A stretch of DNA of 64,000 nt from Bacteroidota bacterium. Its GTDB lineage: Bacteria > Bacteroidota > Bacteroidia > Sphingobacteriales > Sphingobacteriaceae. Below are positions 9,592 through 62,070 of this stretch, piece by piece. The stretch lies in assembly GCA_040390445.1 (NCBI GenBank), contig JAZJYI010000008.1, positions 551,994 through 615,993 of the forward strand, given 5' to 3'. The notes beneath the pieces were generated by a model. The model was not told the DNA's origin, made no database searches, and saw nothing but the letters and a program-made list of their open reading frames with translations. The translations under genes and the position numbers were made by a program. The number at the start of each line of letters is the position of its first letter. The stretch's first letter is position 1.

Positions 9592-10085
9592 AAAAGACAA
9601 TTAATTACCGGTTGACCGTAGCAGAAAAGCAAGTGCTTAAAAATCAAAAAATAAGCCAAAAGCTATTGCAGGATTATGCTCCAGATGAAATTGCCAGTCT
9701 GTTGGAGGCATCGCCCCAGCGTGCCAAAGAATTGAATGCACTGGCAGAATTTCAAAGCATCCCCTCGCTTGGTATCAACTTTGCCGAAGAATTGATAAGC
9801 CAGGGTTATTATAGGCTGGCGCAACTCAAGGGGAAGTCGGCAGTAGCATTATTTGATGCTTTTGAACAGCACAGCGGTGCCTGGGCCGACCCATGTGTAG
9901 AAGATTCGTACCGATTGCTTGTACATTATATAGAAAACCATGACGACTCCAAACGCTGGTGGCATTTCACAGCCGAGCGCAAAGATTACCGCGAGCGATA
10001 TGGTTTTTCTGCTAACCGGCCTAAAAATGCCTGGCACGAGAGCGGCGATTATCCTAAAATGGCCGGTTATCTTCAAAATAAATAA
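9588..10085 (+). CDS. Helix-hairpin-helix protein, Cdd1/'pathogenicity locus' family-like
   Basis: HhH motif FQSIPSLGINFAEEL followed by DPCVED and RWWHF, which are typical of this family. Confidence 0.7.
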   Translation: MKKTINYRLTVAEKQVLKNQKISQKLLQDYAPDEIASLLEASPQRAKELNALAEFQSIPSLGINFAEELISQGYYRLAQLKGKSAVALFDAFEQHSGAWADPCVEDSYRLLVHYIENHDDSKRWWHFTAERKDYRERYGFSANRPKNAWHESGDYPKMAGYLQNK

Positions 10086-10152
10086 TGAAATTTTTTCCTG
10101 ATTATCAGTGTGTTGAATAGGTTGTGTTCAAAATGTCAATATTATTATATTA

Positions 10153-10170
10153 AATCTATAGGATTAGTAG
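10153..10170. promoter_or_regulatory. Putative operator, copy 1 (upstream of the SAM-I riboswitch promoter)
   Basis: AATCTATAGGATTAGTAG; its reverse complement matches 12416-12433 at 15 of 18 positions. It lies just upstream of the TATATTTG box at 10181-10188. Confidence 0.45.
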
Positions 10171-10213
10171 GATATATACATATATTTGCAGTGTAGTAAT
10201 CGTTCTTTAAGTA

Positions 10214-10325
10214 CTTATCCAGAAAGACAGAGGGAAAGGCCCGATGACGTCTTAGCAACCTGTACCGGTTTTATAAACTTGTAAAAGGTGCTAATTCCTG
10301 CTCCGCTAAACGGAGAGAGATAAGA
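10214..10325 (+). ncRNA. SAM-I (S-box) riboswitch
   Basis: P1 CTTATC/GATAAG, P2 AAGAC/GTCTT with GAGGG..CCCGATGA, J2/3 AGCAACC, GGTGCTAATTCC and P4 CTCCG-ctaaa-CGGAG. It lies downstream of a TAnnTTTG promoter. Confidence 0.9.
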
Positions 10326-10424
10326 TGACCATAGAAATTCAAATATTCCACCTACCTGATTTCTTCGCGCTTCTGAATCTGATAAGTATTTACAGGCAAT
10401 TTGTAAATAATTAAAAGTACCAAC

Positions 10425-11561
10425 ATGAGCATTTATCTGGACAACGCTGCAACAACACAATTAGACAGGGAAGTATTTGATGCAATGACCCCATATTTAT
10501 TACAGAATTTTGGCAACCCGTCATCACATCATGTACATGGCAGGGTGGTGAAAAATGCTATTGAAAAAGCAAGGGAAACCATAGCCGGCCTGTTGAACGC
10601 ATCACCCGATGAAATTGTATTTACCAGCGGTGGCACTGAGGCCGATAATACAGCCATCCTGTCGAGCGTTCGTTCACATCAAATAAAACATGTTATTACC
10701 ACACCGTTTGAGCACCACGCTGTTTTACACACTCTTGAGGTTTTAAGAAATAACGACGAAATAAAACTAAGCTTTATTAATACCGATAGTAGGGGTAACT
10801 TGGATATAAATCACCTGGATGCCCTGTTGAAAAATAACGAACGCTCGCTGGTATCGGTAATGCATGCCAATAATGAAATTGGTAACCTTAACAATATTGA
10901 ACTGATTGGCGAGGTCTGTAAAAGCAGGGGCGCACTTTTTCACTCAGACACCGTACAGACCATGGGCCATTACCGGCACGATATGTCAAAACTAAAAACA
11001 CATTTTATAGCCGCATCGGCACATAAATTTCATGGGCCAAAAGGGGTGGGGTTTATATACTGCCGCAATGGTGTACAGCTATCACAATTATTGCACGGCG
11101 GTTCGCAGGAACGTAAACAAAGGGCAGGTACTGAAAATATCCATGGCATTATTGGCCTGGCAAAAGCTTTAGAGATAGCCTACCGCGATATTGACGGGCA
11201 CCAGGCATACATACAAAAATTAAAAAACAGGATGATTGCTAAATTGCAGGAACAAATAGGCGATGTACAGTTTAACGGTAACTCGGCCATTGCCGATAAA
11301 AGCCTGTATACTGTACTAAGTGCAAGCCTGCCGGTTAATCATGCGTCCGGAGATTTGCTTACCTATCTCGATCAGAATGATATTTCGGTATCGGGTGGCA
11401 GCGCATGTTCAACAGGCTCGGCATCACATGTATTACAGGCTATCGGTGCTGATACATTTAGAAATACGATCAGATTCTCGTTCAGTAAATTCAATACTGC
11501 CGAAGAAATTGATTATACCGTAGAAAAGCTATCAGCCTTATACAAGGCTATAGCAGCATAA
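10425..11561 (+). CDS. iscS: Cysteine desulfurase, IscS/NifS-like PLP enzyme
   Basis: Motifs IYLDNAATT, FGNPSS, FTSGGTEADN, SAHKFHGPKG and the catalytic SGGSACS. No isc or suf scaffold genes are adjacent, so the symbol denotes the family only. Confidence 0.85.
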   Translation: MSIYLDNAATTQLDREVFDAMTPYLLQNFGNPSSHHVHGRVVKNAIEKARETIAGLLNASPDEIVFTSGGTEADNTAILSSVRSHQIKHVITTPFEHHAVLHTLEVLRNNDEIKLSFINTDSRGNLDINHLDALLKNNERSLVSVMHANNEIGNLNNIELIGEVCKSRGALFHSDTVQTMGHYRHDMSKLKTHFIAASAHKFHGPKGVGFIYCRNGVQLSQLLHGGSQERKQRAGTENIHGIIGLAKALEIAYRDIDGHQAYIQKLKNRMIAKLQEQIGDVQFNGNSAIADKSLYTVLSASLPVNHASGDLLTYLDQNDISVSGGSACSTGSASHVLQAIGADTFRNTIRFSFSKFNTAEEIDYTVEKLSALYKAIAA

Positions 11562-11570
11562 TATTAAAAT

Positions 11571-12017
11571 ATGAGAAAATTTATAATAAGTGCGGGCATT
11601 ATATTATCGGGTTTTTACGCTAACGCGCAAATCCTTACCCCGGTTAAGTGGGCCTACGCAAGTAAACGGCTCAATAAAAATGAGGCTGTTATTTTGGTAA
11701 AAGCAACTATTGAAAAAGGCTGGCACATTTATTCGCAAAATGTAGCCGATGGCGGGCCGGTTAAAACGGCTTTGGTTTTTACCAAATCTGACGAGTATAA
11801 TTTGGTTAACAAGCCTACTGAACCTCAACCGTTAAAAAAATATGAAAAGGCTTTTGATATGGATGTAACCTACTTTGAAAATACGGTTGTGTTTCAGCAA
11901 AAAGTAAAGCTTGTAAAAGATCAGCCGATTATTAACGGAACCGTATCATACATGGCTTGTAGCAACAAAGAGTGCCTGCCGCCAGAGGATGTTACTTTTA
12001 GCGTAAGCGTAAAATAG
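11571..12017 (+). CDS. Stand-alone DsbD N-terminal (alpha) domain protein, exported
   Basis: Signal peptide (ANA-Q), GWHIYS and C-terminal YMACSNKECLPP. Confidence 0.8.
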   Translation: MRKFIISAGIILSGFYANAQILTPVKWAYASKRLNKNEAVILVKATIEKGWHIYSQNVADGGPVKTALVFTKSDEYNLVNKPTEPQPLKKYEKAFDMDVTYFENTVVFQQKVKLVKDQPIINGTVSYMACSNKECLPPEDVTFSVSVK

Positions 12018-12433: not shown

Positions 12434-12500
12434 TAGTTTGCTTTATTGATATTTATTGTTACCTTTACTGCATCTAATTAACCCCACCATTAATTAGTTG

Positions 12501-12610
12501 ATTTATTAAGAAAAAGGGAGAGGAAGCCTCGATGATCTTTTAGCAACTTTTCAGATATCTGGAATAAGTGCTCTACTTTATCTGATGGAATAATCCAACG
12601 GATAATAAAT
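12501..12610 (+). ncRNA. Divergent SAM-I-like riboswitch
   Basis: The elements occur in the same order as in 10214-10325: TTATT-AAGA, P2 AAAAG/CTTTT with GAGG-aag-CCTC-GATGA, AGCAAC, P3 TTCAGA/TCTGGA, GTGCT, P4 TGGA/TCCA, GATAA. Confidence 0.6.
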
Positions 12611-12622
12611 TAACTAAGTGTT

Positions 12623-12700
12623 ATGAAAAATTTGAAGTATCCAAAAGTAAACAAACAAACAACCGCTACTCCACCGCGATGTTGTTGTATGTGCATGTAG
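12623..12700 (+). CDS. Candidate sulfur-sensing leader peptide, 25 aa (MKNLKYPKVNKQTTATPPRCCCMCM)
   Basis: The last six codons are TGT TGT TGT ATG TGC ATG, then TAG. It starts 12 nt after the SAM-I-like RNA and ends 160 nt before the first operon gene. Confidence 0.65.
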   Translation: MKNLKYPKVNKQTTATPPRCCCMCM

Positions 12701-12860: not shown

Positions 12861-14177
12861 ATGAACTTCAAAAATTATCTATCAAAAGCAAAATACCTTA
12901 CACTGGGTGTTTTATTAAGTGGTGCAGCGGTAGCGGGGGATAAAGTGCCGGCAGCAAAATTTATTAAAGAGGGCGTATGGCGTGGCGTATTTACGGTGAG
13001 CGAATCGCAGGTGCCGTTTAACTTCGAGCTGAAAGGGAAAGACCCGCAGCATGCCATATTTACATTGATAAACGGAACCCGCCGTGATAACTTTCATGTT
13101 GAGCGCCGCGGTAATGATTCAGTATACATTAAAATGAATACCTACGATGCCGCATTGGTCGCTAAAATAAACGATGATAATACCATTAGCGGTGAATACC
13201 GCAGTCTGGTACCCGGTTTTAGGGGGAATGCCCTGCCATTTACGGCCGAATATGGTAAAAATTATCGCTTTGTAGAGCCAGGTAAAGACGTAGCCCCGGC
13301 TGCCGACTTATCCGGTAAATGGGAAATCAAAACCTATAGTAAAGAAGCCGTCCCTGCATCTATCGCCATATTAAAACAAAAAGGAAATAAGCTAACAGGC
13401 GTGGTGATGACTGTTGTTGGCGACACCCGCGAACTGGAAGGCACTGTACAAGGCGACGAATTTGCGCTGAGTGGTTTTACCGGCCCAAGTCCGTTTATTA
13501 TAAAAGGTAAAATAAATGCTGATGGCACTATTAGCGGCGAAGAAGGTTTCGGCATCTACAAAAACCTGAAGTTTGATGCCACTAAGAACGCAGCTGTTGA
13601 GTTGCCCGATCCATATAAACTAACCTTCCTAAAAGAGGGCTACAAAAAACTTGATTTTTCTTTCCCTGGCATTGACGGCAAACAGGTATCGTTAAGCGAC
13701 GAAAAATACAAAGGCAAGGTTGTTATTATTGAGATAATTGGTACATGGTGCCCAAATTGCACCGATCAAACCGTATTCCTGTCGCCATGGTTTAATAAAA
13801 ACCGCCAGCGTGGGGTAGAAGCCATAGCTATTGGTTTTGAGCAAAAAGACAGCCTGGAGTACGCCAAATACACATTAGGAAAGCTGAAAGAAAAATATAA
13901 CATTAACTATGATATTGCCTTTGGCGGCCTGGCCGATAAAAAGCTGGTATCGCAAAAGCTGCCCGCGCTAAATAAGTTTATCGCTTTCCCAACTACTATT
14001 ATTATTGATAGAAAAGGCGATGTGCGAGAGATTTACACCGGCTATACAGGTACCGTAACCGGCAAATATCACGAGGATTACGAAAAGAAATTCAACAAAG
14101 TATTGGACGAGTTGATTGCCGAGCCAGCACCAGAAACGGCACAGGTTGTTGATAAAAACGCGAGTCAGGGTAAATAA
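12861..14177 (+). CDS. TlpA-family thioredoxin-like disulfide reductase with a large N-terminal beta domain (copy 1)
   Basis: Sec signal; C-terminal redoxin domain with GTWCPNC and FPTTIIIDRKG. Confidence 0.88.
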   Translation: MNFKNYLSKAKYLTLGVLLSGAAVAGDKVPAAKFIKEGVWRGVFTVSESQVPFNFELKGKDPQHAIFTLINGTRRDNFHVERRGNDSVYIKMNTYDAALVAKINDDNTISGEYRSLVPGFRGNALPFTAEYGKNYRFVEPGKDVAPAADLSGKWEIKTYSKEAVPASIAILKQKGNKLTGVVMTVVGDTRELEGTVQGDEFALSGFTGPSPFIIKGKINADGTISGEEGFGIYKNLKFDATKNAAVELPDPYKLTFLKEGYKKLDFSFPGIDGKQVSLSDEKYKGKVVIIEIIGTWCPNCTDQTVFLSPWFNKNRQRGVEAIAIGFEQKDSLEYAKYTLGKLKEKYNINYDIAFGGLADKKLVSQKLPALNKFIAFPTTIIIDRKGDVREIYTGYTGTVTGKYHEDYEKKFNKVLDELIAEPAPETAQVVDKNASQGK

Positions 14178-14199
14178 ACTTTAAACCGAACATAAACAT

Positions 14200-15504
14200 A
14201 TGAAAACTAACAATTTAAAAGGGCTTTTAATAGGCTTGTTATTTAGCGGTGCCGCTTTCGCAGGCGACAAAGAACCGGTAAAATTTATTAAAGAAGGCGT
14301 TTGGCGCGGTGTATTCCGTGTAAGCGAATCACAGGTGCCGTTCAACTTTGAATTTAAAGGCAAGGATGCAGAGCATGCGGTGTTTACGCTGCTAAATGGC
14401 ACCCGCCGGGATAATTTCCATGTACAAAAAATAGGTAAAGATTCGGTGTTCATTAAAATGAATACCTACGATGCAGCCCTTGTTGCCAAAATTGAAGAGG
14501 ATGGCACGCTAAGCGGCGAGTACCGCAGCCTGGTACCGGGTTTTAGAGGCAACTCGTTGCCTTTTACTGCCGAGTATGGCAAAAACTACCGCTTTGTTGA
14601 ACCGGGCAAGGATGTTGCCCCGGCAGCAAACCTAACCGGTAAGTGGGAGTTGAAGGTTTACTCGAAAGAGCAGGTGCCAAACAAAATTGCTGTTCTTAAA
14701 CAAAACGGCAATAAGCTAACCGGTGTAATTATGCAGGTAACCGGCGACAGCCGCGAATTGGAAGGTACAGTACAGGGCGATCAGTTCGAACTATCCGGTT
14801 TCACTGGCCCAAGCCCAAAGATTTATCATGGTAAAATAAATGCAGATGGCACCCTGAGTGGCGAAATTGGCTCCGGTATTTACGATAATACCAAGTTTGA
14901 CGCTGTAAAAGATGAAAAAGCCGAACTGCCTGATCCATATAAGCTAACTTTTTTAAAAGAAGGCTATAAGAAACTGGATTTCACTTTCCCTGACCTGAAC
15001 GGCAAAGCGGTATCATTAAGCGATGATAAATATAAAGGCAAAGTGGTTATTGTAGAGATTATAGGTACCTGGTGCCCTAACTGTACTGATCAAACCGTGT
15101 TTTTGTCGCCATGGTTCAACAAAAACCACCAGCGTGGGGTAGAAGCCATTGCTCTTGGTTTTGAGCAAAAGGATAGCCTTAAATACGCTCAATATACCTT
15201 AGGTAAGTTGCGCGATAAATATGATGTGAAATACGACATCCTTTTTGGCGGCCTGGCCGATAAAAAATTGGTATCGCAAAAACTGCCTGCGCTTAATAAG
15301 TTCGTGGCATTCCCAACTACGATCATCATCGATAGGAAAGGCGAAGTACGCGAGATCTATACCGGCTACACCGGCACGGTAACCGGTAAATATTACAAGG
15401 ATTACGAAAAGAAATTTAATGCCCTGCTTGATAAACTATTGGCAGAAGATGCGCCAACAACCGCCGCCGTAAGCACAGACGATAACGCATCAAAAGGAAG
15501 ATAA
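14200..15504 (+). CDS. TlpA-family thioredoxin-like disulfide reductase (copy 2, tandem paralogue)
   Basis: Colinear with the previous gene and highly similar along its whole length, with the same WCPNC motif. Confidence 0.88.
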   Translation: MKTNNLKGLLIGLLFSGAAFAGDKEPVKFIKEGVWRGVFRVSESQVPFNFEFKGKDAEHAVFTLLNGTRRDNFHVQKIGKDSVFIKMNTYDAALVAKIEEDGTLSGEYRSLVPGFRGNSLPFTAEYGKNYRFVEPGKDVAPAANLTGKWELKVYSKEQVPNKIAVLKQNGNKLTGVIMQVTGDSRELEGTVQGDQFELSGFTGPSPKIYHGKINADGTLSGEIGSGIYDNTKFDAVKDEKAELPDPYKLTFLKEGYKKLDFTFPDLNGKAVSLSDDKYKGKVVIVEIIGTWCPNCTDQTVFLSPWFNKNHQRGVEAIALGFEQKDSLKYAQYTLGKLRDKYDVKYDILFGGLADKKLVSQKLPALNKFVAFPTTIIIDRKGEVREIYTGYTGTVTGKYYKDYEKKFNALLDKLLAEDAPTTAAVSTDDNASKGR

Positions 15505-15534
15505 AAGATTAACCGGACTATATAATTAACTATT

Positions 15535-15564
15535 AACCTGGTGCAGATTTGCCTGCGCCGGGTT
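15535..15564 (+). other. Intercistronic hairpin
   Basis: AACCTGGTGCAG pairs with CTGCGCCGGGTT using G-U pairs; the U-tract is weak. Confidence 0.45.
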
Positions 15565-15594
15565 TAAACAACAAAACTAAGCACAAGAACGATC

Positions 15595-16251
15595 ATGAAA
15601 TTAACAATTGGCCTATCGGTAATAACCATAGCATCTATTGCAGCATTAACTGGCATAGCTCCAAACAAAACAAACCATGTAAAACCCACGGCAATTGCAG
15701 TAAATCCTATCAGGTTTGCAAAACCGGTTGTTTTTAAAGTAGATAACCAAACCAGCAAACTTACCTGGCTGGCTAAAAAAGCCACCGGCGAACACTCTGG
15801 CACCGTAGAAGTAAGCGATGGTAGCTTTACCCTTGATAATAACACACTAAAAGCAGGTAGCTTTGATATTGATACCCGTAGTATTACAGACACGGATATT
15901 ACCGACGAAGGTGCAAACGGTAAACTGGTTACTCACCTAAAAAGCGACGACTTTTTCAGTGTAGAAAAGCACCCTAAAGCAAACTTTGTGCTTACATCTG
16001 CCACAAAAGCAGCGGGTAATATTTATAATGTTAAAGGTAACCTAACCATAAAAGGCATCACTAACGAGGTAACTTTTCCGGCTACGGTTGCGGTAAACGG
16101 TAAAAAGCTAACTGCCAACGCTAAGATCACCATAGATCGTACCAAGTACGATATCAAATTCCGGTCTAAAAACTTCTTTGAGAATTTGGGCGACAAAGTG
16201 ATCTATGACGATTTTGATATTAATGTGGCGCTTGTAGCCAACGCCCAATAA
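15595..16251 (+). CDS. YceI family exported lipophile-binding protein
   Basis: Signal peptide; motifs LTWLAKKATGEHSG, LVTHLKSDDFFSVEKHP, GNLTIKGIT and IDRTKYDI. Confidence 0.9.
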   Translation: MKLTIGLSVITIASIAALTGIAPNKTNHVKPTAIAVNPIRFAKPVVFKVDNQTSKLTWLAKKATGEHSGTVEVSDGSFTLDNNTLKAGSFDIDTRSITDTDITDEGANGKLVTHLKSDDFFSVEKHPKANFVLTSATKAAGNIYNVKGNLTIKGITNEVTFPATVAVNGKKLTANAKITIDRTKYDIKFRSKNFFENLGDKVIYDDFDINVALVANAQ

Positions 16252-16283
16252 ATAAAGAAACTACATTGATTAGGTTGGAAGAT

Positions 16284-16316
16284 AAAGATCCCTGCTTTGA
16301 GCGGGCAGGGACTTTA
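16284..16316 (+). terminator. Intercistronic hairpin or weak intrinsic terminator
   Basis: TCCCTGC-tttgagcgg-GCAGGGA followed by CTTTATT. Confidence 0.5.
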
Positions 16317-16366
16317 TTGACTAATAAACTCGTAAATAATATACCATAACAGCTGAGCAAATAACC

Positions 16367-17332
16367 ATGAAAAAGAAGAATATCACCTTAACTATAATAA
16401 GTGTTACGCTTTTATTCATTACCACGGTAAGCTTCATGTCGGGGCCCGATGAAGTGCAAACCAGGGAAGAGCTTGGCCGTAAACTATTTTTTGATAACAT
16501 CCTTTCAAAAGACAATACTATTAATTGCTCATCGTGCCATAACCCCGAGTTTGCATTTGCCGATACCTCTGTATTTAGTAAAGGTATTGGTGGTAAGCTA
16601 ACTGCACGTAATTCGCCGGGGCTTACAAATTTATCGGGCCGTACCCACTTTTTTTGGGATGGCCGCGCAGCCTCGTTAGAAGAACAGGCCCTCGGGCCAA
16701 TTACATCGCCCGATGAGATGGGTTTACCCATTGAAGAGGCTATTGAACGACTTAACAAAAACGAATTTTATGCAAACGCTTTTCAAAAAATATTTAAAGC
16801 AGCGCCGAATAAAGATAATTTGTTGAAAGCACTTGCTGCTTTTGAACGGACGCTGGAAACAAGCAACAGCCCTTATGACCGCTATATAAATGGTGATGAT
16901 AATGCATTATCAGCCGCTGCGGTACGTGGCCGCAATATATTTATAGGCAAGGGTAACTGTAACAACTGCCACTCTGGCGAAGATTTTACCGCAGACCGCT
17001 TTAAAAGCATTGGCTTATATAATGGCAAAGACCTGAACGATGCCGGCAGGTTCAAAATAACAAAAGACAGCACCGTACTGGGCGAATTTAAAATACCAGG
17101 TTTGCGTAATGTAGCCGTAACAGCGCCATACATGCACAACGGTAAGTTTAAAACTCTGCGCAACGTGGTGGAGTATTACAACAATCCATCAGCTTTGGTA
17201 AGTGACGGTATAAACCGCGACCTGTCTTTAGATAAACCATTGAACCTTTCATCGCAGGATATAGATGACGTAGTTGAATTCCTGAAAGCCTTAACTGATG
17301 ACAGGTTCGCCAAAAATATAAGCAGAAACTGA
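16367..17332 (+). CDS. Di-heme cytochrome c peroxidase superfamily protein, MauG/MbnH-like
   Basis: Two CxxCH motifs (CSSCH, CNNCH), FFWDGRAASLEEQA and FKIPGLRNVAVTAPYMHNG; signal peptide. Confidence 0.88.
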   Translation: MKKKNITLTIISVTLLFITTVSFMSGPDEVQTREELGRKLFFDNILSKDNTINCSSCHNPEFAFADTSVFSKGIGGKLTARNSPGLTNLSGRTHFFWDGRAASLEEQALGPITSPDEMGLPIEEAIERLNKNEFYANAFQKIFKAAPNKDNLLKALAAFERTLETSNSPYDRYINGDDNALSAAAVRGRNIFIGKGNCNNCHSGEDFTADRFKSIGLYNGKDLNDAGRFKITKDSTVLGEFKIPGLRNVAVTAPYMHNGKFKTLRNVVEYYNNPSALVSDGINRDLSLDKPLNLSSQDIDDVVEFLKALTDDRFAKNISRN

Positions 17333-17430
17333 TACCATAAACTAATCTGAACACTTAAAAGCAAAATGTAATGCGGGCCAAACGGCCTGTACGAAATGCC
17401 CTTTTGCCTAAATTTTAACACAATAAAACA

Positions 17431-20202
17431 ATGAAAAGAGCTATACTTTATATATTATTCTTAAGCCTTATTTATGGGCAAAATACACTGGCGCAGGAGG
17501 CGAGACGGGTAACCGGCGTAGTTACGTCGGCCGATGATGGCCAGCCCTTACCTGGTGTATCTGTACAGGTAAAAGGTACTAATGAGGGTACTGTCACTAA
17601 ACTTGATGGTACGTTTGAACTAAATATAACTACCGGTAAATACCTTATTTTTTCTTTTGTAGGGTACGAAACACAAGAGATTTATATTGATGGTATCCGC
17701 AGGTTTAACGTGGCGCTAAAGCCAAAAGGCAATCAATTGGGCGATGTGCAAATCATCGGTTCACGTAACGCAAACCGTACCAAGCTTAACTCGGCCAACC
17801 CGGTTGATATTATTGATATTAAGGCGCTACAGGAGAGCAGCCCGCAGGTAAGCGTTACTCAACTGCTGCAATACGTATCACCGTCATTCCACTCATCCGT
17901 ATCTGGTGGTGGTGATGCGGCATCGGCAACCTCAACAGCGCAATTGCGTGGGTTGGGAGTAGATCAATTACTGGTTCTGATAAACGGTAAACGCCGCCAT
18001 AAAAGCTCTAACATCAGTTGGGGTGGTTTGGGTAATGGTGCTACCGGTTATGATCTAAACTCTATCCCAACCGGTTCTATAGACCGCATTGAGATACTAC
18101 GCGATGGTGCGGCCGCTCAATATGGTTCTGATGCTATTGCAGGGGTAATTAATATTGTATTGAAGAAATCTACCGATCAGTTAACGCTTAATTCTACTGC
18201 CAGTAGCCGCCGCCGGGGGGATGGCATTACTACGCGTACCAGTAGCAATTACGGCGTTAAACTCGGTGACAAAGGTGGTTTTTTAAACTTGACCGGCGAA
18301 TTTGCTACCCAGGCGGTATCCTTGCCGGTAGGTAGGGATGATGCAGGTTTGTATATAGGCCCTGCATATGGCGGGGGCGCTAACACCCGCGGTTTCGATC
18401 AGATCTATACCAAAGAAATAGATGATGCCATCATCAAATCAAGAGGGATAGACAGGCATTACTTTGACCAGCGCGGCAGCACCAATAAAGCTATTGACGC
18501 ATTGCTGTTCTTTAATGCGGCGGTACCTTTACAAAAAGACGTTGAACTATATAGTTTTGGTGGTATAAGCCAGCGCAATTCACAATTTACGGCCGTTTAC
18601 CGTTTACCAGGCTGGACAGAGCGTAACAATACATTTGTTTATCCTGATGGCTTTTTACCGGCCATGGATAACATCATTTCTGATAAATCATTAGCGGTAG
18701 GCGTAAAAGCCAAAGTACACGGTTGGAATGTAGATATATCAAACGTGTACGGTAATAATAGCTTTGGTAACAATATCTCTAACTCGCTTAATGCAAGCTA
18801 CGGCTTACGTTCGCCGCGTAAATTTGACGCGGGGAGTTATAGCGCCAGCCAGAATACCGGTAGTTTAGATTTTAGCCGCTACTTTGATAAGGTACTGAAA
18901 GGGGTGAACATTGCCTTTGGCGGCCAGTATCGTGTTGAAACTTACCGTATCAATGCAGGCGATGAGGCGTCTTATTCTAAAGCCGACCTGAGGCAGATAT
19001 ACGGTGTGGATACGACATCAGGCGGTATACCTTACACAACATCGTTAGGGCAAACGCCGCTAAACGGTTTATCGCCAGGCTCACAGATCCACGCGGGTTT
19101 CAGGCCAAGTAACGAGGTGAACGTAAACCGCTCCATCTCTGCAGGCTACGCCGATGTGGAAGTGAACGCAACCAACGCCTGGTTGGTATCTGGCGCTTTG
19201 CGAGTTGAGAACTACTCAGATTTTGGGAGCGTATTTACTTACAAAGCCGCAACCCGTTATAAATTTGCCGATTTCTTAAGCGTTCGTGGTTCCATTAACA
19301 CCGGCTTCCGCGCACCCGATCTGGCACAGTTCTATTATACCGAAACATCAACAACGTTCCAGAATGGAGTAGCTATTGATCAGGTTACGGCTAACAACGT
19401 TAATCCGGCTACCAAAGCCTTAGGTATACCGAGCTTAACGCCTGAGCGGTCTAAAGGCTATACCGCTGGTATCACCTCATCGCCCATACCAAATTTTGAG
19501 TTTACGATTGATGCTTATAAAATTGATATCCGCGACAGGGTAGGTAACACGGGCCGTTTTTCGGCTACAGACACCAACCTACCTGCAGATGTAAGGGCAT
19601 TATTTGTGGCAACGGGTACGGTACAGGCTAAGTTCTTCTACAATTCCTTTAGTACCAGTACCAGAGGGGTGGAGCTTACAGGTAGTTATAAATATACTTT
19701 CGAGAATGGCGCTAAAGCAACTTTCCTGGTAGGGGCCAATTTCCTGGAAACTAAATTGACTAAAGTGAACACCCCACCAGGACTGGAAGCGTACCGCTAC
19801 ATTATATTTGATGAGTCGGAGAAGGCTCGTGTAACTAACAACATACCGTCTAAAAAGATCACCTTACAAGGTACTTATGGAATAGACAGGTTCAACTTCC
19901 TGCTGCGTACGGTTTACTTTGGCTCGGTAGTTTCAGTTACCCAATTAAACGCCAATTTTCCTAAGCCCGATTATTACTACCAAACGTTCAGTCCGGTTTG
20001 GATAACCGATTTATCTGTAGGGTATGCGGTATCTAAAAACTTATCGGCTACGATAGGTGCCAACAACCTGTTCAATATACTGGGCGATTATACTATCCCT
20101 GCACCGGGTAGTAACATTACCCGCATCCCTGGCCCGGGCTCTTCACAGGCAGGGACCAATACAGGTATACAGCCATTTGTAAGATTATCGGCTAAATTTT
20201 AA
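17431..20202 (+). CDS. TonB-dependent receptor with an N-terminal carboxypeptidase-regulatory-like domain (not SusC type)
   Basis: Plug motifs LVLINGKRRH and RIEILRDGAAAQYGSDAIAGVINIVLK; C-terminal Phe; no SusD downstream. Confidence 0.92.
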   Translation: MKRAILYILFLSLIYGQNTLAQEARRVTGVVTSADDGQPLPGVSVQVKGTNEGTVTKLDGTFELNITTGKYLIFSFVGYETQEIYIDGIRRFNVALKPKGNQLGDVQIIGSRNANRTKLNSANPVDIIDIKALQESSPQVSVTQLLQYVSPSFHSSVSGGGDAASATSTAQLRGLGVDQLLVLINGKRRHKSSNISWGGLGNGATGYDLNSIPTGSIDRIEILRDGAAAQYGSDAIAGVINIVLKKSTDQLTLNSTASSRRRGDGITTRTSSNYGVKLGDKGGFLNLTGEFATQAVSLPVGRDDAGLYIGPAYGGGANTRGFDQIYTKEIDDAIIKSRGIDRHYFDQRGSTNKAIDALLFFNAAVPLQKDVELYSFGGISQRNSQFTAVYRLPGWTERNNTFVYPDGFLPAMDNIISDKSLAVGVKAKVHGWNVDISNVYGNNSFGNNISNSLNASYGLRSPRKFDAGSYSASQNTGSLDFSRYFDKVLKGVNIAFGGQYRVETYRINAGDEASYSKADLRQIYGVDTTSGGIPYTTSLGQTPLNGLSPGSQIHAGFRPSNEVNVNRSISAGYADVEVNATNAWLVSGALRVENYSDFGSVFTYKAATRYKFADFLSVRGSINTGFRAPDLAQFYYTETSTTFQNGVAIDQVTANNVNPATKALGIPSLTPERSKGYTAGITSSPIPNFEFTIDAYKIDIRDRVGNTGRFSATDTNLPADVRALFVATGTVQAKFFYNSFSTSTRGVELTGSYKYTFENGAKATFLVGANFLETKLTKVNTPPGLEAYRYIIFDESEKARVTNNIPSKKITLQGTYGIDRFNFLLRTVYFGSVVSVTQLNANFPKPDYYYQTFSPVWITDLSVGYAVSKNLSATIGANNLFNILGDYTIPAPGSNITRIPGPGSSQAGTNTGIQPFVRLSAKF

Positions 20203-20224
20203 ATCATATCAATAAACAGAACTC

Positions 20225-21139
20225 ATGAAAATAATGGAATATATTTTAAAAAGAATAAAAAATCCAGAAAGGCTGCGAGGGCTTCAACCTGTCTATGCGT
20301 TAAGTATGCTTATAATATTACTATCAGCATCCTGCAAAAAAACCAATTACCTGGATACTGATAATTCGCAAAGGCCGCCATTAAGCGCCAGGGTGAAATT
20401 GGTGAACGCCTTAAGCATAACCGCGCCAATAAACTTCCTGGATTTTACCAGGCAGGTTAACACCAGCCTGGTAGTTCATAATGCATCTACAGGTTACCTG
20501 GATACACAATTTGGCAAGGTACAATACAACACCACCGAGGGTAGCAATACCAGTTACAAGTCATCATACGTGTTTGGCGGGAGTGCCATTTTTCAGCAGG
20601 AGACGGATAAAGCATCTTTTTCGGGCCCTAATGGCCCCATAGCCGATTTTTATCATACACTATTTGCGGTAGCCAAACGTAAGCCCAGCAAATTAAACCC
20701 CGGTAACCGCGACAGCCTGGTATTGGTTTATGATGATCTGGATGCCCCGGCAGCAGGCAAAACCAAAGTAAGGTTTGCTAACTTCTCGCCCGATGCACCA
20801 AATGTAAGTTTTGCTGCGGCAGGCGGCACCGCCATATTTACCAACGTAGGCTACGGTAGTTTTGGCGATCAAACCGTACTTACTTATGACGCTACAGGTA
20901 AAGGCCCTGCCACCATACCGGGACTAAACTGGAAAACCCTGGGGCCATTTAAAGAGATAGCACCCACGGCAGTAGTAAACTTTGAGATAAGGAATGCCAC
21001 CACCAATGCTGTGATCCCGGTAACCGGAACAGGGTTAACAGGGGTAACATTTGAGGCCGGGAAAATATATACCGTGTTTATAAACGGAACGGTAACAGGT
21101 GGAACTTTAAGCGCGACGATAATTACCCATACTAAGTAA
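20225..21139 (+). CDS. DUF4397-like surface lipoprotein
   Basis: Lipobox LSASC followed by KK; two repeats of the type RVKLVNA and KVRFANFSPDAP; C-terminal GKIYTVFING. Confidence 0.75.
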   Translation: MKIMEYILKRIKNPERLRGLQPVYALSMLIILLSASCKKTNYLDTDNSQRPPLSARVKLVNALSITAPINFLDFTRQVNTSLVVHNASTGYLDTQFGKVQYNTTEGSNTSYKSSYVFGGSAIFQQETDKASFSGPNGPIADFYHTLFAVAKRKPSKLNPGNRDSLVLVYDDLDAPAAGKTKVRFANFSPDAPNVSFAAAGGTAIFTNVGYGSFGDQTVLTYDATGKGPATIPGLNWKTLGPFKEIAPTAVVNFEIRNATTNAVIPVTGTGLTGVTFEAGKIYTVFINGTVTGGTLSATIITHTK

Positions 21140-21175
21140 CAGCACATACAATAAGTGATTTAATATTTGTGCTTT

Positions 21176-21211
21176 AAAGGCAGCGCGGCTTTATACCCGC
21201 CTGCCCTTTTT
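21176..21211 (+). terminator. Intrinsic terminator-like hairpin before sod
   Basis: AAAGGCAGCGCGG pairs imperfectly with CCGCCTGCCCTTT and is followed by a T run. Confidence 0.55.
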
Positions 21212-21237
21212 AACGTTTAATTATAAAAACAATAGCC

Positions 21238-21948
21238 ATGAAAGATAACAGTAGAAGACAATTCATCAAAAATACCCTTGCAGCTACCGCAGCCGTAACC
21301 GTGGGCACATCTTTAATAGATAGTTCAACCGCGTTTGCAGGTGTAGAAGCATTTAAGTTTACACAGGTGCCGCTGCCATTTAAATACGCCGACCTGGAGC
21401 CGAATATTGATGCATTAACTAATGAAATACATTATACAAAGCACCACACCGCATATATTAAAAATGTGAATGATGCCATTGTTGCCGAAAAGATACCCTA
21501 CACCAGCGAAAAGCAATTTTTTGACAATGCCTCAAAACTATCGGCCAAGGCCCGAAACAACGCAGGCGGCGCCTGGAACCATAACTTTTTTTGGGAAAGT
21601 TTGCGCGCACCAGGTGGGGCAGGGCCTCAGGGTAAATTGTTGGATGCTATCAACGGCTCCTTTGGTTCACTTGATAAACTAAAAGAACAATTTAACGATG
21701 CCGCTACAAAACGTTTTGGATCTGGCTGGGCATGGCTGGTTGTTGATGGCGGGAAATTAAAGATTGGGTCAACAGCTAACCAGGATAATCCATTATTTGA
21801 TAATGCCGAACTAAAAGGAACGCCTTTATTGGGCCTGGATGTTTGGGAACATGCCTACTATTTAAAGTACCAGAATCGCCGCCCCGAGTATATTGCTAAT
21901 TTTTGGAATGTAGTTAACTGGGATAAAGTAGCATCGCGATTGAGTTAG
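21238..21948 (+). CDS. sodA: Tat-exported Fe/Mn superoxide dismutase with Mn-type residues
   Basis: Twin-arginine signal SRRQFIK; metal ligands in HYTKHH, NHNFFW and DVWEHAYY. GG in NNAGG and NQD are typical of Mn-type enzymes. Confidence 0.9.
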   Translation: MKDNSRRQFIKNTLAATAAVTVGTSLIDSSTAFAGVEAFKFTQVPLPFKYADLEPNIDALTNEIHYTKHHTAYIKNVNDAIVAEKIPYTSEKQFFDNASKLSAKARNNAGGAWNHNFFWESLRAPGGAGPQGKLLDAINGSFGSLDKLKEQFNDAATKRFGSGWAWLVVDGGKLKIGSTANQDNPLFDNAELKGTPLLGLDVWEHAYYLKYQNRRPEYIANFWNVVNWDKVASRLS

Positions 21949-22556
21949 TTACTGCAGCTAAAATCAGCCCATAGCTTATTCATTCGTTCCCATACCGGTG
22001 CGCCTGTTTTTTGCGGACTAAGCTCGTGAAAAACTATTAGTTTATCTGAGCCGGAGCAAACGCGCACATGTATTATGCAGTTTAATGTTATGGGCCTTTG
22101 GGCCATATAATCGAGCATGTACACTGTTCCGTTATAGGTTTGCAGGTCGTTACCGGCTTTGCTAACTTTTTTAATGCTTGTTTTTATTTTTACAAGTTGT
22201 TCTGGTTTGATGCTTCGTTTCCCGATGTTTCTTTCTACAAGGCCGGTATAATAAGCTGTAAGGTTTTTTTCTATCATGGTTGTAGTGATAGTTGGTTTTG
22301 CGTCAAGCAACCATAAAAACGCATATGACCAATAATCGGAGCTTTTTGCATCACCCCAACCGGGTGTGAAACGGATATCTTCAACCCCATGATAGGGAAT
22401 TGAGGGGGCAAAATCTATTGGGATAGGGAAACGTTCAATGCTCCAGCCGTCTGTTGCAAGTGTATAAGGCGCTTTCCAACTAGGTGCGTCAAATTTTTCC
22501 TGCCCGTAGCTTTTAAAAAATACCAGGCAAATAATTAAGGTCAGGATACTTTTCAT
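21945..22556 (-). CDS. Secreted hypothetical protein
   Basis: 203-aa ORF with a signal peptide (SYG-Q) and a minus-strand TATTTTTG box upstream. Its stop overlaps the sod stop. Confidence 0.75.
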   Translation of the reverse strand: MKSILTLIICLVFFKSYGQEKFDAPSWKAPYTLATDGWSIERFPIPIDFAPSIPYHGVEDIRFTPGWGDAKSSDYWSYAFLWLLDAKPTITTTMIEKNLTAYYTGLVERNIGKRSIKPEQLVKIKTSIKKVSKAGNDLQTYNGTVYMLDYMAQRPITLNCIIHVRVCSGSDKLIVFHELSPQKTGAPVWERMNKLWADFSCSN

Positions 22557-61416: not shown

Positions 61417-62070
61417 ATGAAAAAAATAGCAACTATATTATCTATACTGATAATTGCCTTAAGCTTACAGGCGCAGGCACAAACAAAAAAACAAAAAGCT
61501 AAACCCAAAAAGGCTATTAGTGCCAATACCACTTCAACAACTGTTAAAAAAGTGGATCCCCCTAAGGCAGACGCCCCAAAAACGGAAACAAAAACGGTTG
61601 CGGTTAGCACACCAAAAAGAACAGCCACTGTAACAGACGATTACTATAAAACAGCCCTGGGCGTGAAATTTTTGCACGGCATATCCCTTACTGCCAAACA
61701 TTTTATCAATGAAAAAGGCGCGCTTGAAGCCGTTATACAATACCGCCACTATACCGATGTTGGCTCGGAAATTAATTTTACAGGCTTATATGAATACCAT
61801 GGTAAAATAGCCGGTGCAGGCGGCCTGCGCTGGTATGTTGGCGGCGGGGCATACGCAGGGTACTTCTCGTCTGATAATGACGCAGTGAACGATCTTAATG
61901 ATGGCTCATCCAACTTTACTTTCGGCGTTGCGGGTACAGTAGGGCTGGAGTATAAAATAAAAGGCGCCCCTTTAGCCATTAGCGCCGACTGGCAACCTCT
62001 TTATATTATAAACGGCAACAGTGGCCTGGCAACCGATAATGGGGGCATAGGCGTTAAATACACATTTTAA
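61417..62070 (+). CDS. Small outer-membrane beta-barrel protein with a Lys/Thr/Pro-rich N-terminal linker
   Basis: Signal peptide; amphipathic strands (TALGVKF, LRWYVGGG, GLEYKI, SADWQP); C-terminal GVKYTF. Confidence 0.75.
   Translation: MKKIATILSILIIALSLQAQAQTKKQKAKPKKAISANTTSTTVKKVDPPKADAPKTETKTVAVSTPKRTATVTDDYYKTALGVKFLHGISLTAKHFINEKGALEAVIQYRHYTDVGSEINFTGLYEYHGKIAGAGGLRWYVGGGAYAGYFSSDNDAVNDLNDGSSNFTFGVAGTVGLEYKIKGAPLAISADWQPLYIINGNSGLATDNGGIGVKYTF

What the first reader, a model, noticed from the sequence alone, without database searches (positions are those of the whole stretch)
21238..21948. Sulfur-free, Tat-exported superoxide dismutase
Seen: twin-arginine signal and intact metal ligands, with no Cys and no Met after the initiator. 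Positions that often hold Met in this family read IDALTNEIH and NQDNPLF. Inference: a periplasmic isozyme that replaces or supplements the housekeeping SOD during sulfur starvation, like other sulfur-sparing isoforms. A terminator-like hairpin at 21176-21211 leaves only 26 nt before the start, so expression probably relies on read-through.
Basis: partly seen in the sequence, partly recalled or inferred. Interest (0 to 1): 0.65.

Follow-up and report, generated by a model that had tools for sequence, protein, structure and literature searches.

The report
Methionine-free periplasmic SOD in SAM-riboswitch operon
This soil bacterium has a second superoxide dismutase that is exported to the cell envelope and contains no sulfur once mature; it ends an operon that appears to switch on when methionine/SAM is scarce, so it looks like a new case of a cell building a stress enzyme without the nutrient it lacks.

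Summary
ORF 21238-21948 encodes a 236-aa Mn-type Fe/Mn SOD with a Tat leader and all four metal ligands. It has no Cys and no Met after the initiator, so the mature protein (202 aa) has no sulfur.

- The SOD is the last gene of a same-strand run (two TlpA-like, YceI, di-haem MauG-like, TonB receptor, DUF4397, SOD). A SAM-I riboswitch (12500-12611) and a Cys/Met-rich leader peptide head the run.
- This run is the most Met-poor stretch of the whole 5.4-Mb genome.
- The riboswitch and Met-poor operon are conserved in 23 Mucilaginibacter-type genomes.
- In one metagenomic relative the riboswitch sits directly before the SOD.
- SODs linked to a riboswitch have 0 Met in 20 of 23 cases. Equally Tat-exported relatives outside such contexts keep 1-9 Met. 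Lineages that left the operon have Met back at canonical positions.
- A cytoplasmic SOD with two internal Met exists elsewhere in the genome.

The enzyme can supplement that SOD but not replace it, because they work in different compartments. The hairpin before the gene is real and conserved. No expression data were available. Other notes of this scan on this same window had already flagged the riboswitches and the sulfur-stripped operon.

The parts
21238..21948 (+). Tat-exported Mn-type superoxide dismutase, 236 aa, 0 Cys, initiator Met only
   Evidence: ORF. Pfam PF00081 and PF02777. Best solved relatives are MnSODs (2cdy, 1y67). The NCBIfam Mn model scores 211 bits against 182 for the Fe model. 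Ligands H65, H115, D201, H205 and Mn-type Gln182 and Gly110-Gly111.
21238..21339 (+). Twin-arginine signal peptide (aa 1-34, SRRQFIK ... AFA|G)
   Evidence: TIGR01409 scores 20.4 bits, above its cut-off of 16.7. Pfam TAT_signal scores 19.7 bits, below its cut-off. TatC lies at G000:C2:464329-465033.
21142..21172 (+). Conserved hairpin 1 (GCACA ... TGTGC) in the DUF4397-SOD spacer
   Evidence: Fold. It is present in about 15 related operons, and also before the SOD of L037. It is not a genome-wide repeat.
21179..21211 (+). Conserved G+C-rich hairpin 2 plus U-tract, terminator-like, 26 nt before the SOD start
   Evidence: Fold. Compensatory changes occur in 8 of 16 predicted pairs of the two hairpins across 15 genomes. 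The hairpins are absent where the spacer is only 17-32 nt (L043, L044, L057, L068).
12500..12611 (+). SAM-I (S-box) riboswitch aptamer at the head of the gene run
   Evidence: RF00162 scores 52.4 bits, above the gathering score of 44.4. It is conserved at the same place in L034, L039 and L040, in 23 named genomes and in L127.
12623..12700 (+). Leader ORF MKNLKYPKVNKQTTATPPRCCCMCM, 11 nt behind the aptamer
Evidence: Read from the sequence. An analogous ORF ending in CCCK lies behind the riboswitch of L037.
12861..14177 (+). TlpA/AhpC-TSA-like exported thiol:disulfide oxidoreductase 1 (438 aa, 2 Met, 2 Cys)
   Evidence: Pfam; NCBIfam; composition.
14200..15504 (+). TlpA-like oxidoreductase 2 (434 aa, 2 Met, 2 Cys)
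15595..16251 (+). YceI-like protein (218 aa, no Met after the initiator, no Cys)
16367..17332 (+). Di-haem MauG/MbnH/CCP-like enzyme (321 aa, 3 Met, 4 haem-binding Cys)
   Evidence: Pfam CCP_MauG. NCBIfam MbnH and MauG models match below their cut-offs.
17431..20202 (+). TonB-dependent receptor (923 aa, 1 internal Met, 0 Cys); fourth most sulfur-poor ORF of the genome
20225..21139 (+). DUF4397 lipoprotein (304 aa; its Met lie only in the leader, and its one Cys is the lipobox Cys)
10212..10326 (+). First, canonical SAM-I riboswitch. It precedes the NifS/IscS-like cysteine desulfurase (10425-11561) and the DsbD_N-like protein (11571-12017), directly upstream of the run
   Evidence: RF00162 scores 81.1 bits; Pfam and NCBIfam.

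Best explanation
The gene encodes a manganese-type superoxide dismutase. It is folded and metal-loaded in the cytoplasm, exported by the Tat system, and cut after AFA34. The result is a 202-residue periplasmic enzyme with no sulfur atoms.

It is the last gene of an envelope gene run: two TlpA-like reductases, YceI, a MauG-like di-haem enzyme, a TonB receptor, a DUF4397 lipoprotein, then the SOD. The run's leader carries a SAM-I riboswitch and a Cys/Met-codon leader peptide. The run is therefore most likely transcribed when SAM, methionine or cysteine are scarce.

All its products have lost dispensable Met, and only functional Cys remain. They can thus be made when Met-tRNA and sulfur are limiting.

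The SOD supplements the Met-containing cytoplasmic SOD but does not replace it. It removes superoxide in the periplasm under sulfur limitation, when thiol-based antioxidants are short and/or the operon's own redox chemistry makes reactive oxygen. The H2O2 it produces could be consumed by the di-haem enzyme of the same run.

Transcription probably reaches the SOD by partial read-through of a conserved terminator-like hairpin.

Shown here: the sequence features, the riboswitch match, the composition statistics, and the phylogenetic association. Inferred: induction by sulfur or Met limitation, co-transcription, Mn use, export, and the physiological role.
For: 1. A second, leaderless SOD with Met at the canonical sites exists. 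There is no Cu/Zn SOD.

2. Rfam finds SAM-I aptamers at 10212-10326 (81 bits) and 12500-12611 (52.4 bits, above the gathering score of 44.4), on the same strand as the run. The leader ORF ends in CCCMCM.

3. The run 12861-21948 is the most Met-poor run of consecutive ORFs in the 5.38-Mb genome at every window size tried, k = 3, 4, 5, 7 and 8. It has 7 Met in 2664 residues, against a genome mean of 2.0%.

4. Other SAM-riboswitch or sulfur loci of the genome are also Met-poor, including cytoplasmic proteins: MetY 1/436, MetX 3/370, Hom 2/410, 1-Cys peroxiredoxin 1/211, and a TonB receptor 3/1067. The second most Met-poor run holds MetQ (0 Met; the MetI and MetN genes next to it are not Met-poor), an SrpI-type encapsulin and its cysteine desulfurase.

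5. The riboswitch and the seven-gene operon are conserved in 23 named Mucilaginibacter-type genomes. Operon Met is 0.26-0.48% (201 of 60571 residues), against 1.64% in the flanking genes. Cys is always 8-10, which equals the CxxC, haem and lipobox Cys.

6. There are independent arrangements.
- In L037 the same riboswitch and a CCCK leader peptide lie directly before a Met-free Tat-SOD, followed by SrpI encapsulin and cysteine desulfurase.
- In M. gynuensis the order is riboswitch, cysteine desulfurase, 1-Cys peroxiredoxin, SOD.
- In two Pedobacter species a Met-free SOD directly precedes SrpI.

7. Mature SODs linked to a riboswitch have 0 Met in 20 of 23 cases. Ingroup Tat-SODs without one have 0 Met in 2 of 17 cases (Fisher p = 2.5e-6, not corrected for phylogeny). 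More distant Tat-SODs have 3-9 Met.

8. The last Met (position 62) was replaced by three different residues, N, L and T, each time in a sulfur-linked context. Lineages that left the operon have Met back at canonical positions 122 and 187. The Met gain rate is 3/428 substitutions on riboswitch-linked branches against 16/638 elsewhere.

9. The two contigs L037 and L126 come from one metagenome sample, and both proteins are also listed on a 6.18-Mb contig, so they are probably from one genome. They carry a riboswitch-linked SOD with 0 Met and a second Tat-SOD with 2 Met and no riboswitch.

10. Literature: sulfur starvation induces antioxidant enzymes (LsfA, Ohr, sodB transcript) in P. aeruginosa (PMC12581299). 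SrpI encapsulin is induced by sulfur starvation (PMC8049743).
Against:
- The riboswitch lies 8.6 kb upstream. Two terminator-like hairpins lie in between, at 16289-16311 and 21179-21211. The SOD may not be on the riboswitch-controlled transcript in this genome.
- The saving is only 2-3 Met per monomer.
- About 5% of similar-sized exported proteins of this genome are also sulfur-free.
- A peptide-utilisation TonB/SusD pair with no sulfur context is equally Met-poor.
- Three riboswitch-linked SODs keep one Met. Two Met-free SODs have no detectable SAM riboswitch.
- The association rests on few independent evolutionary transitions.
- The aptamer at 12500 is divergent. SAM-I variants with other ligands exist (PMC10853860).
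Confidence: 0.7

Rival explanations
1. Oxidation-proofing. The periplasmic SOD lost Met because Met is the residue most easily oxidised by H2O2, HOCl and singlet oxygen in an exposed compartment. Sulfur supply has nothing to do with it.
For: All products of the run are envelope proteins with redox or antioxidant functions (TlpA-like, di-haem peroxidase-like, SOD). Exported proteins of this genome are poorer in sulfur than cytoplasmic ones.
Against: Equally Tat-exported SODs outside SAM-riboswitch or SrpI contexts keep 1-9 Met, including a second copy that is probably in the same genome as a Met-free one. Cytoplasmic proteins of SAM-riboswitch and SrpI loci (MetY, MetX, Hom, 1-Cys peroxiredoxin, encapsulin shell, cysteine desulfurase) are Met-poor too. 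The run is headed by a SAM aptamer and a Cys/Met leader peptide, not by a known oxidant-sensing element.
Confidence: 0.12
2. Chance or compartment bias. Fe/Mn SODs carry few Met, and envelope proteins of this organism are generally sulfur-poor. A Met-free copy arose by drift and means nothing.
For: 11 of 210 crude exported ORFs of similar size have no sulfur. The cytoplasmic paralogue has only 2 internal Met. A peptide-PUL TonB/SusD pair is equally Met-poor without any sulfur context.
Against: The run is the single most Met-poor one of 4300 windows at five window sizes. The depletion is conserved in 23 genomes at 65-97% SOD identity. The last Met was lost three times to different residues in sulfur-linked contexts, and canonical Met returned after loss of the context. 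Met gains are rarer on riboswitch-linked branches.
Confidence: 0.08
3. The SOD is its own transcription unit. The conserved hairpin and U-tract end the upstream operon efficiently, and the SOD is expressed from a separate, possibly constitutive or oxidant-responsive promoter. Its Met-free state is inherited from an ancestor but is not tied to present regulation in this genome.
For: The terminator-like hairpin is conserved with covariation in most genomes. A second terminator-like hairpin lies after YceI. The two-hairpin module travels with the SOD in L037, so it may be a 5' leader element of the SOD itself.
Against: Only 26 nt separate the U-tract from the ATG. No Bacteroidota-type promoter motif is conserved in the spacer. 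In four genomes the spacer is 17-32 nt with no hairpin, which implies co-transcription. In L037 the only upstream element is the riboswitch and leader peptide, so transcripts must pass the same hairpin.
Confidence: 0.15

Closest known systems
Bacterial MnSOD (SodA; e.g. Deinococcus radiodurans 2cdy/1y67, E. coli 1d5n)
   Same: Same two-domain fold family and the same four ligands. It has the Mn-type Gln in the C-terminal domain (ANQD) and Gly-Gly in the N-terminal domain. The E-value to 2cdy is 1.7e-67.
   Different: It has a 34-residue Tat leader. All canonical Met are replaced (M->N62, M->L122, M->F187). It sits in a riboswitch-headed envelope operon. Scores are below the equivalog cut-offs of both the Mn and the Fe NCBIfam models, so the metal choice is inferred.
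Sulfur-depleted isoforms made under sulfur limitation: Calothrix phycocyanin set 3 (Mazel & Marliere 1989), yeast Pdc6/Ald6/Eno1 (Fauchon et al. 2002), and sulfur-poor sulfur-assimilation enzymes (Baudouin-Cornu et al. 2001). Cited from my own knowledge, not read here.
   Same: A paralogue with Met and Cys removed exists beside a sulfur-containing counterpart, and it is linked to a sulfur-limitation signal.
   Different: Here the enzyme is an antioxidant, it works in a different compartment from its counterpart, and the signal is a SAM riboswitch plus a Cys/Met leader peptide. Induction has not been shown.
Sulfate-starvation-induced antioxidant proteins of Pseudomonas (LsfA 1-Cys peroxiredoxin, Ohr, sodB transcript; PMC12581299)
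   Same: Antioxidant enzymes belong to the sulfur-limitation response. A 1-Cys peroxiredoxin is also behind a SAM riboswitch in this genome (G000:C1:533475) and next to the SOD in M. gynuensis.
   Different: Regulation there is by protein factors (CysB and the Sfn family) and the enzymes are cytoplasmic. In that study the SodB protein rise was not significant.
Predicted Tat-exported MnSODs of cyanobacteria (e.g. Chroococcidiopsis SodA2; PMC8193680)
   Same: A Fe/Mn SOD with a twin-arginine leader, predicted to act outside the cytoplasm (listed in the search, paper not read).
   Different: Those copies have no reported sulfur-free composition and no SAM-riboswitch link.
S-box (SAM-I) regulons
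   Same: RF00162 aptamers precede metY-metX-hom and metH-metF in this genome, as in classical S-box regulons.
   Different: The targets here include envelope redox proteins, TonB receptors, a peroxiredoxin and, by linkage, an SOD. A full-text search for 'SAM riboswitch' + 'superoxide dismutase' + 'Bacteroidetes' found no paper.

Membership tests
Fe/Mn superoxide dismutase | N-terminal alpha-hairpin and C-terminal alpha/beta domains (PF00081 + PF02777) above gathering score | tested here: met
   79.2 and 144.2 bits against cut-offs of 27 and 20.9.
Fe/Mn superoxide dismutase | Three His and one Asp metal ligands | tested here: met
   H65, H115, D201 and H205 align with the ligands of 2cdy.
Fe/Mn superoxide dismutase | Mn-type second-sphere Gln from the C-terminal domain and a Gly-Gly pair, not the Fe-type N-terminal Gln | tested here: met
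   ANQ182D and AG110G111AWNH are present. The best structures are MnSODs. The Mn model scores 211 bits against 182 for the Fe model, both below equivalog cut-offs. Cambialism cannot be excluded.
Fe/Mn superoxide dismutase | Superoxide dismutase activity | not testable with these tools
   Needs an activity gel or assay.
Tat substrate | S/T-R-R-x-F-L-K motif, a hydrophobic stretch and an AxA cleavage site | tested here: met
   SRRQFIK, then a hydrophobic stretch, then AFA|G. TIGR01409 scores 20.4, above its cut-off of 16.7. Pfam PF10518 scores 19.7, below its cut-off of 22.7.
Tat substrate | Tat machinery encoded in the genome | tested here: met
   TatC scores 228 bits at C2:464329-465033.
Tat substrate | Tat-dependent export shown | not testable with these tools
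   Needs fractionation in the wild type and in a tatC mutant.
SAM-I riboswitch regulon member | RF00162 aptamer above gathering score upstream on the same strand | tested here: met
   52.4 bits at 12500-12611, against a gathering score of 44.4.
SAM-I riboswitch regulon member | Gene lies on the transcript controlled by the aptamer | tested here: inconclusive
   The genes are on the same strand with gaps of 22-116 nt. However, terminator-like hairpins lie at 16289-16311 and 21179-21211. There are no RNA data.
SAM-I riboswitch regulon member | Linkage conserved in relatives and in independent arrangements | tested here: met
   23 genomes have the same operon. In L037 the riboswitch lies directly before the SOD, and M. 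gynuensis has a third arrangement.
SAM-I riboswitch regulon member | Aptamer binds SAM | not testable with these tools
   The core nucleotides are conserved, but SAM-I variants with other ligands exist. In-line probing is needed.
Sulfur-sparing isoform | Lower Met and Cys content than its counterpart and than orthologues outside the regulon | tested here: met
   0 Met, against 2 internal Met in the cytoplasmic paralogue and 1-9 in Tat-SODs without a riboswitch.
Sulfur-sparing isoform | Depletion tracks the sulfur-linked context across the phylogeny | tested here: met
   20 of 23 against 2 of 17 with zero Met. There were three independent losses of M62. Met returned at positions 122 and 187 after loss of the context. 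Independent events are few.
Sulfur-sparing isoform | Induced under sulfur or methionine limitation | not testable with these tools
Induction is inferred from the riboswitch and leader peptide only.

The most novel reading that the evidence does not exclude
The SOD is a working part of an undescribed sulfur-limitation envelope system and not just a by-stander antioxidant. In this reading the TonB receptor, the DUF4397 lipoprotein, the two TlpA-like reductases, YceI and the MauG-like di-haem enzyme take up and redox-process an oxidised or organic sulfur source in the periplasm. The sulfur-free SOD controls the superoxide made or used in that chemistry. The whole module is gated by a SAM riboswitch combined with a Cys/Met-codon leader peptide. 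The two-hairpin element before the SOD would be a further regulatory RNA that sets SOD dosage.
Probability: 0.2. Interest if true: 0.8.

Novelty: new variant of a known kind. Interest (0 to 1): 0.62.

Why it matters
Element sparing, meaning proteins that are made during a shortage and avoid the scarce element, is known from a few classic cases. It has rarely been tied to a defined RNA sensor or followed along a gene tree.

Here a SAM riboswitch regulon in soil Bacteroidota appears to reach beyond methionine synthesis to an envelope antioxidant and redox module. The SOD offers a clean natural experiment:
- Met is lost three times when the gene is in sulfur-linked contexts.
- Met returns at canonical sites when the gene leaves those contexts.
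- Two copies with opposite states probably occur in one genome.

If confirmed, this would link sulfur or methionine limitation to periplasmic oxidative stress defence in Bacteroidota. It would also show that low Met content can serve as a genomic marker for sulfur-limitation regulons.

Tried and rejected
- Promoter search: the sigma-70 consensus scan gave no more hits than shuffles and does not cover Bacteroidota promoters. A TAnnTTTG-like box at about 21163 is one base off and is not conserved in relatives. I dropped the idea of an SOD-specific promoter there.
- Repeat element: the conserved loop motif of hairpin 1 is not a dispersed repeat.
- Synteny: 26 family-level loci with only 1.5-kb flanks showed no DUF4397 neighbour. 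That was uninformative until wider loci were fetched.
- Foreign DNA: G+C content across the run is unremarkable, at 0.38-0.47.
- Sulfur-free composition as proof on its own: rejected after the exported-protein null gave 5%.
- 'Low Met marks every sulfur locus': rejected as a strict rule. MetH and MetF behind a SAM riboswitch are not Met-poor, and a peptide PUL is Met-poor without any sulfur context.
- Literature: searches for a described SAM-riboswitch-SOD link found nothing.
- A full simulation of Met gain under a substitution model was not run. A parsimony count was used instead.
Full report
**1. The observation**

The ORF 21238-21948 (+) encodes 236 residues. Its only Met is the initiator and it has no Cys.
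- Pfam finds both Fe/Mn SOD domains well above threshold.
- The leader reads S5-RRQFIK-11, then a hydrophobic stretch, then AFA|G. NCBIfam's Tat-signal model passes its cut-off (20.4 against 16.7). Pfam's does not quite (19.7 against 22.7). TatC is encoded in the genome.
- Ligands H65, H115, D201 and H205 are in place. The second-sphere Gln lies in the C-terminal domain (ANQ182D), with Gly110-Gly111 in the N-terminal domain.
- The closest solved structures are MnSODs (2cdy, E = 1.7e-67), and the Mn model outscores the Fe model.
- The mature protein (G35-S236, 202 aa) has no sulfur.
- In an alignment of 151 relatives, Met is the common residue at query positions 62 (117 of 151), 187 (104 of 151) and 122 (92 of 151). 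The query has N, F and L there.

**2. Is a sulfur-free protein more than chance?**

On its own, barely.
- With crude ORF calls (n = 4618) the genome has 2.04% Met and 0.80% Cys.
- Among ORFs with a signal-peptide-like N-terminus and a mature length of 170-240 aa, 11 of 210 have no sulfur. Among soluble ORFs without a leader, 1 of 428 has none.
- TonB-dependent receptors dominate the list of sulfur-poor ORFs.

The composition of this one protein could therefore be a compartment effect. The case rests on context.

**3. The second SOD**

The genome (99.99% complete) has exactly two Fe/Mn SOD genes and no Cu/Zn SOD. The other gene lies at G000:C11:39357-39671. It encodes 203 aa, has no leader, has Met at the canonical sites (ATMEIH, NPLMD) and has no Cys. 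A leaderless SOD of this kind is found in 147 of 150 family genomes searched. The Tat form is patchy.

**4. Context in the window**

Upstream on the same strand lie the following:
- a NifS/IscS-like cysteine desulfurase (10425);
- a DsbD_N-like protein (11571);
- two TlpA-like oxidoreductases (12861, 14200);
- YceI (15595);
- a di-haem MauG/MbnH/CCP-like enzyme (16367);
- a TonB receptor (17431);
- a DUF4397 lipoprotein (20225).

Rfam finds SAM-I riboswitches at 10212-10326 (81.1 bits) and 12500-12611 (52.4 bits, above the gathering score of 44.4). Eleven bases behind the second aptamer is a small ORF, MKNLKYPKVNKQTTATPPRCCCMCM.

I reached the riboswitches and the operon-wide depletion independently. 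I then learned that other notes of this scan on the same window had flagged them.

**5. Operon-wide Met depletion**

For runs of 3, 4, 5, 7 or 8 consecutive ORFs, the run ending in the SOD is the most Met-poor of about 4300 windows in the genome at every size. It has 7 Met in 2664 residues beyond each N-terminus. The Cys that remain are the two CxxC pairs, the four haem-binding Cys and the lipobox Cys.

The second most Met-poor run (G000:C4:283894-299222) is a sulfur locus. Its Met-poor members are:
- MetQ (0 Met); the MetI and MetN genes beside it are not Met-poor;
- a paralogous TlpA-like protein;
- an SrpI-type encapsulin and its long cysteine desulfurase;
- a TonB/SusD pair;
- an exported aminotransferase.

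The genome's six SAM-I riboswitches precede:
- metY-metX-hom (1/436, 3/370 and 2/410 Met);
- a 1-Cys peroxiredoxin (1/211);
- a TonB/SusD pair (3/1067, 1/480);
- metH-metF, which are not depleted;
- the two units described here.

Met-poor composition thus also marks cytoplasmic members of sulfur-linked units. That argues for sparing and against oxidation-proofing of the envelope. One counter-example is noted: a peptide-utilisation TonB/SusD pair is equally Met-poor with no sulfur context.

**6. Relatives**

The whole arrangement (riboswitch, two TlpA, YceI, di-haem, TonB receptor, DUF4397, SOD) recurs in M. aquariorum and in metagenomic contigs. It also recurs in 23 named Mucilaginibacter-type genomes found with a covariance model built from local SAM-I hits. 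In all of them the operon has 0.26-0.48% Met, against 1.64% in the flanking genes, and 8-10 Cys.

Three other arrangements are informative.
- In L037 the same type of riboswitch and a leader ORF ending in CCCK lie directly before a Met-free Tat-SOD. A family-2 (SrpI-like) encapsulin and a cysteine desulfurase follow.
- In M. gynuensis the order is riboswitch, cysteine desulfurase, 1-Cys peroxiredoxin, tRNA, SOD.
- In Pedobacter sp. V48 and P. panaciterrae a Met-free SOD directly precedes SrpI and its cargo. No SAM-I aptamer is detectable there.

SrpI encapsulin is induced by sulfur starvation in Synechococcus (PMC8049743). Tat-SODs with 1-5 Met (M. hurinus, Pedobacter, Cyclobacteriaceae) sit in unrelated contexts without a riboswitch.

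**7. Met loss on the tree**

- Outgroup Tat-SODs carry Met at positions 62, 122 and 187, plus others (3-9 Met in total).
- In the Mucilaginibacter/Pedobacter ingroup, riboswitch-linked SODs have 0 Met in 20 of 23 cases; the other three have one. Those without a riboswitch have 0 Met in 2 of 17 cases, both SrpI-linked. Fisher's p is 2.5e-6, not corrected for shared ancestry.
- The last Met, M62, was replaced by N, by L and by T in three lineages, each in a sulfur-linked context.
- The lineage of M. limnophilus and M. hurinus is nested among riboswitch-linked sequences but no longer sits in the operon. It has Met back at the canonical positions 122 and 187.
- By parsimony, Met gains are 3 of 428 substitutions on riboswitch-linked branches and 16 of 638 elsewhere (p = 0.03). 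Two of the three 'gains' may be retained M62.
- One metagenome sample yields both a riboswitch-linked SOD with 0 Met (L037) and a second Tat-SOD with 2 Met and no riboswitch (L126). Both proteins are also listed on a 6.18-Mb contig, so they are probably from one genome.

The number of independent transitions is small, so this evidence is supportive and not conclusive.

**8. The hairpin**

The 98-nt spacer holds two hairpins: 21142-21172, and 21179-21205 followed by CUUUUU. Both recur in about 15 related operons, with compensatory changes in 8 of 16 predicted pairs. They are missing where the spacer is only 17-32 nt. The same two-hairpin module precedes the SOD in L037, where the only upstream element is the riboswitch and leader.

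The hairpin is therefore real. It is best read as a partial terminator or dosage element that transcripts must pass. No conserved promoter motif fits into the 26 nt before the ATG. A further terminator-like hairpin lies after YceI, at 16289-16311. Whether the seven genes form one transcript remains open.

**9. Mechanism and limits**

The most likely model (about 0.7) runs as follows.
1. Low SAM, and low charged Cys/Met-tRNA, open the leader.
2. The envelope module is made with almost no Met.
3. The SOD is Mn-loaded in the cytoplasm and exported by Tat.
4. It removes periplasmic superoxide while thiol-based defences are limited.

This matches the known induction of antioxidant enzymes by sulfur starvation in Pseudomonas (PMC12581299). 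Avoidance of Met may serve translation under scarce Met-tRNA as much as atom economy; that point is inference.

Not shown: induction, co-transcription, export, metal, and activity. The aptamer's ligand is assumed to be SAM, although SAM-I variants that sense spermidine exist (PMC10853860).

**10. Novelty**

Fe/Mn SODs with Tat leaders are widely annotated. Sulfur-sparing isoforms are a known principle. I found no paper that links a SAM riboswitch to an SOD or to this envelope module. I rate it a new variant of a known kind, of moderate to good interest. Most of that interest belongs to the operon as a whole.

Noticed in passing
window 16289-16311 (+): A terminator-like hairpin (9 pairs, then CTTTATT) lies between YceI and the di-haem gene. 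The seven-gene run may therefore be two or three transcription units or carry internal attenuators.
   Followed up: no
window 12623-12700 (+); L037:9738-9806: A leader ORF ending in CCCMCM lies 11 nt behind the SAM-I aptamer. An analogous ORF, MKKSYTFAPFYLCTTYLRCCCK, follows the riboswitch that directly precedes the SOD in L037.
   Followed up: partly
G000:C4:283894-299222 (outside the window): This is the second most Met-poor run of the genome. It holds MetQ (0 Met) beside MetI and MetN (not Met-poor), a TlpA-like paralogue, an SrpI-type encapsulin with its long cysteine desulfurase, a TonB/SusD pair (2/1098 and 0/481 Met) and an exported HisC-like aminotransferase with no sulfur at all. No SAM-I hit was reported there.
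   Followed up: partly
G000:C1:533475-534384 and G000:C9:212653-218386 (outside the window): SAM-I riboswitches precede a 1-Cys peroxiredoxin (1 Met in 211 aa) and a TonB/SusD pair (3/1067 and 1/480 Met). These are unusual S-box targets.
   Followed up: partly
G000:C8:453349-461609 (outside the window): A peptide-utilisation locus (TonB receptor 1 Met in 977 aa, SusD 0 Met, S15 and M1 peptidases) is as Met-poor as the sulfur-linked loci but has no sulfur context. This is a caveat against using low Met as a strict marker.
   Followed up: partly
window 61417-62070 (+): Another exported-looking ORF of 217 aa has no Met after the initiator and no Cys. It lies among small lipoprotein-like genes.
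   Followed up: no
L033:9818-9888; L040:10755-10825; L034:10929-11016: tRNA genes lie directly beside the Tat-SOD in three relatives. This could mark a rearrangement or insertion hot spot that explains why the gene moves between contexts.
   Followed up: no
L040:10852-19153: In one metagenomic relative the operon is followed on the opposite strand by organosulfur-type genes: Na/sulfate symporter family, acyl-CoA dehydrogenase-like, luciferase-like monooxygenase, rhodanese, and a further TlpA-like protein.
   Followed up: no
L052 (Mucilaginibacter sp. OK268) 10001-10996: The SOD match is 996 nt long instead of about 720, and my ORF extraction recovered only a fragment of the domain. The gene may be interrupted or frameshifted in this genome.
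   Followed up: no
window 21945-22556 (-): A convergent gene for a 203-aa exported protein with no Pfam match overlaps the SOD stop codon by 4 nt. No terminator was found between the two genes.
   Followed up: no
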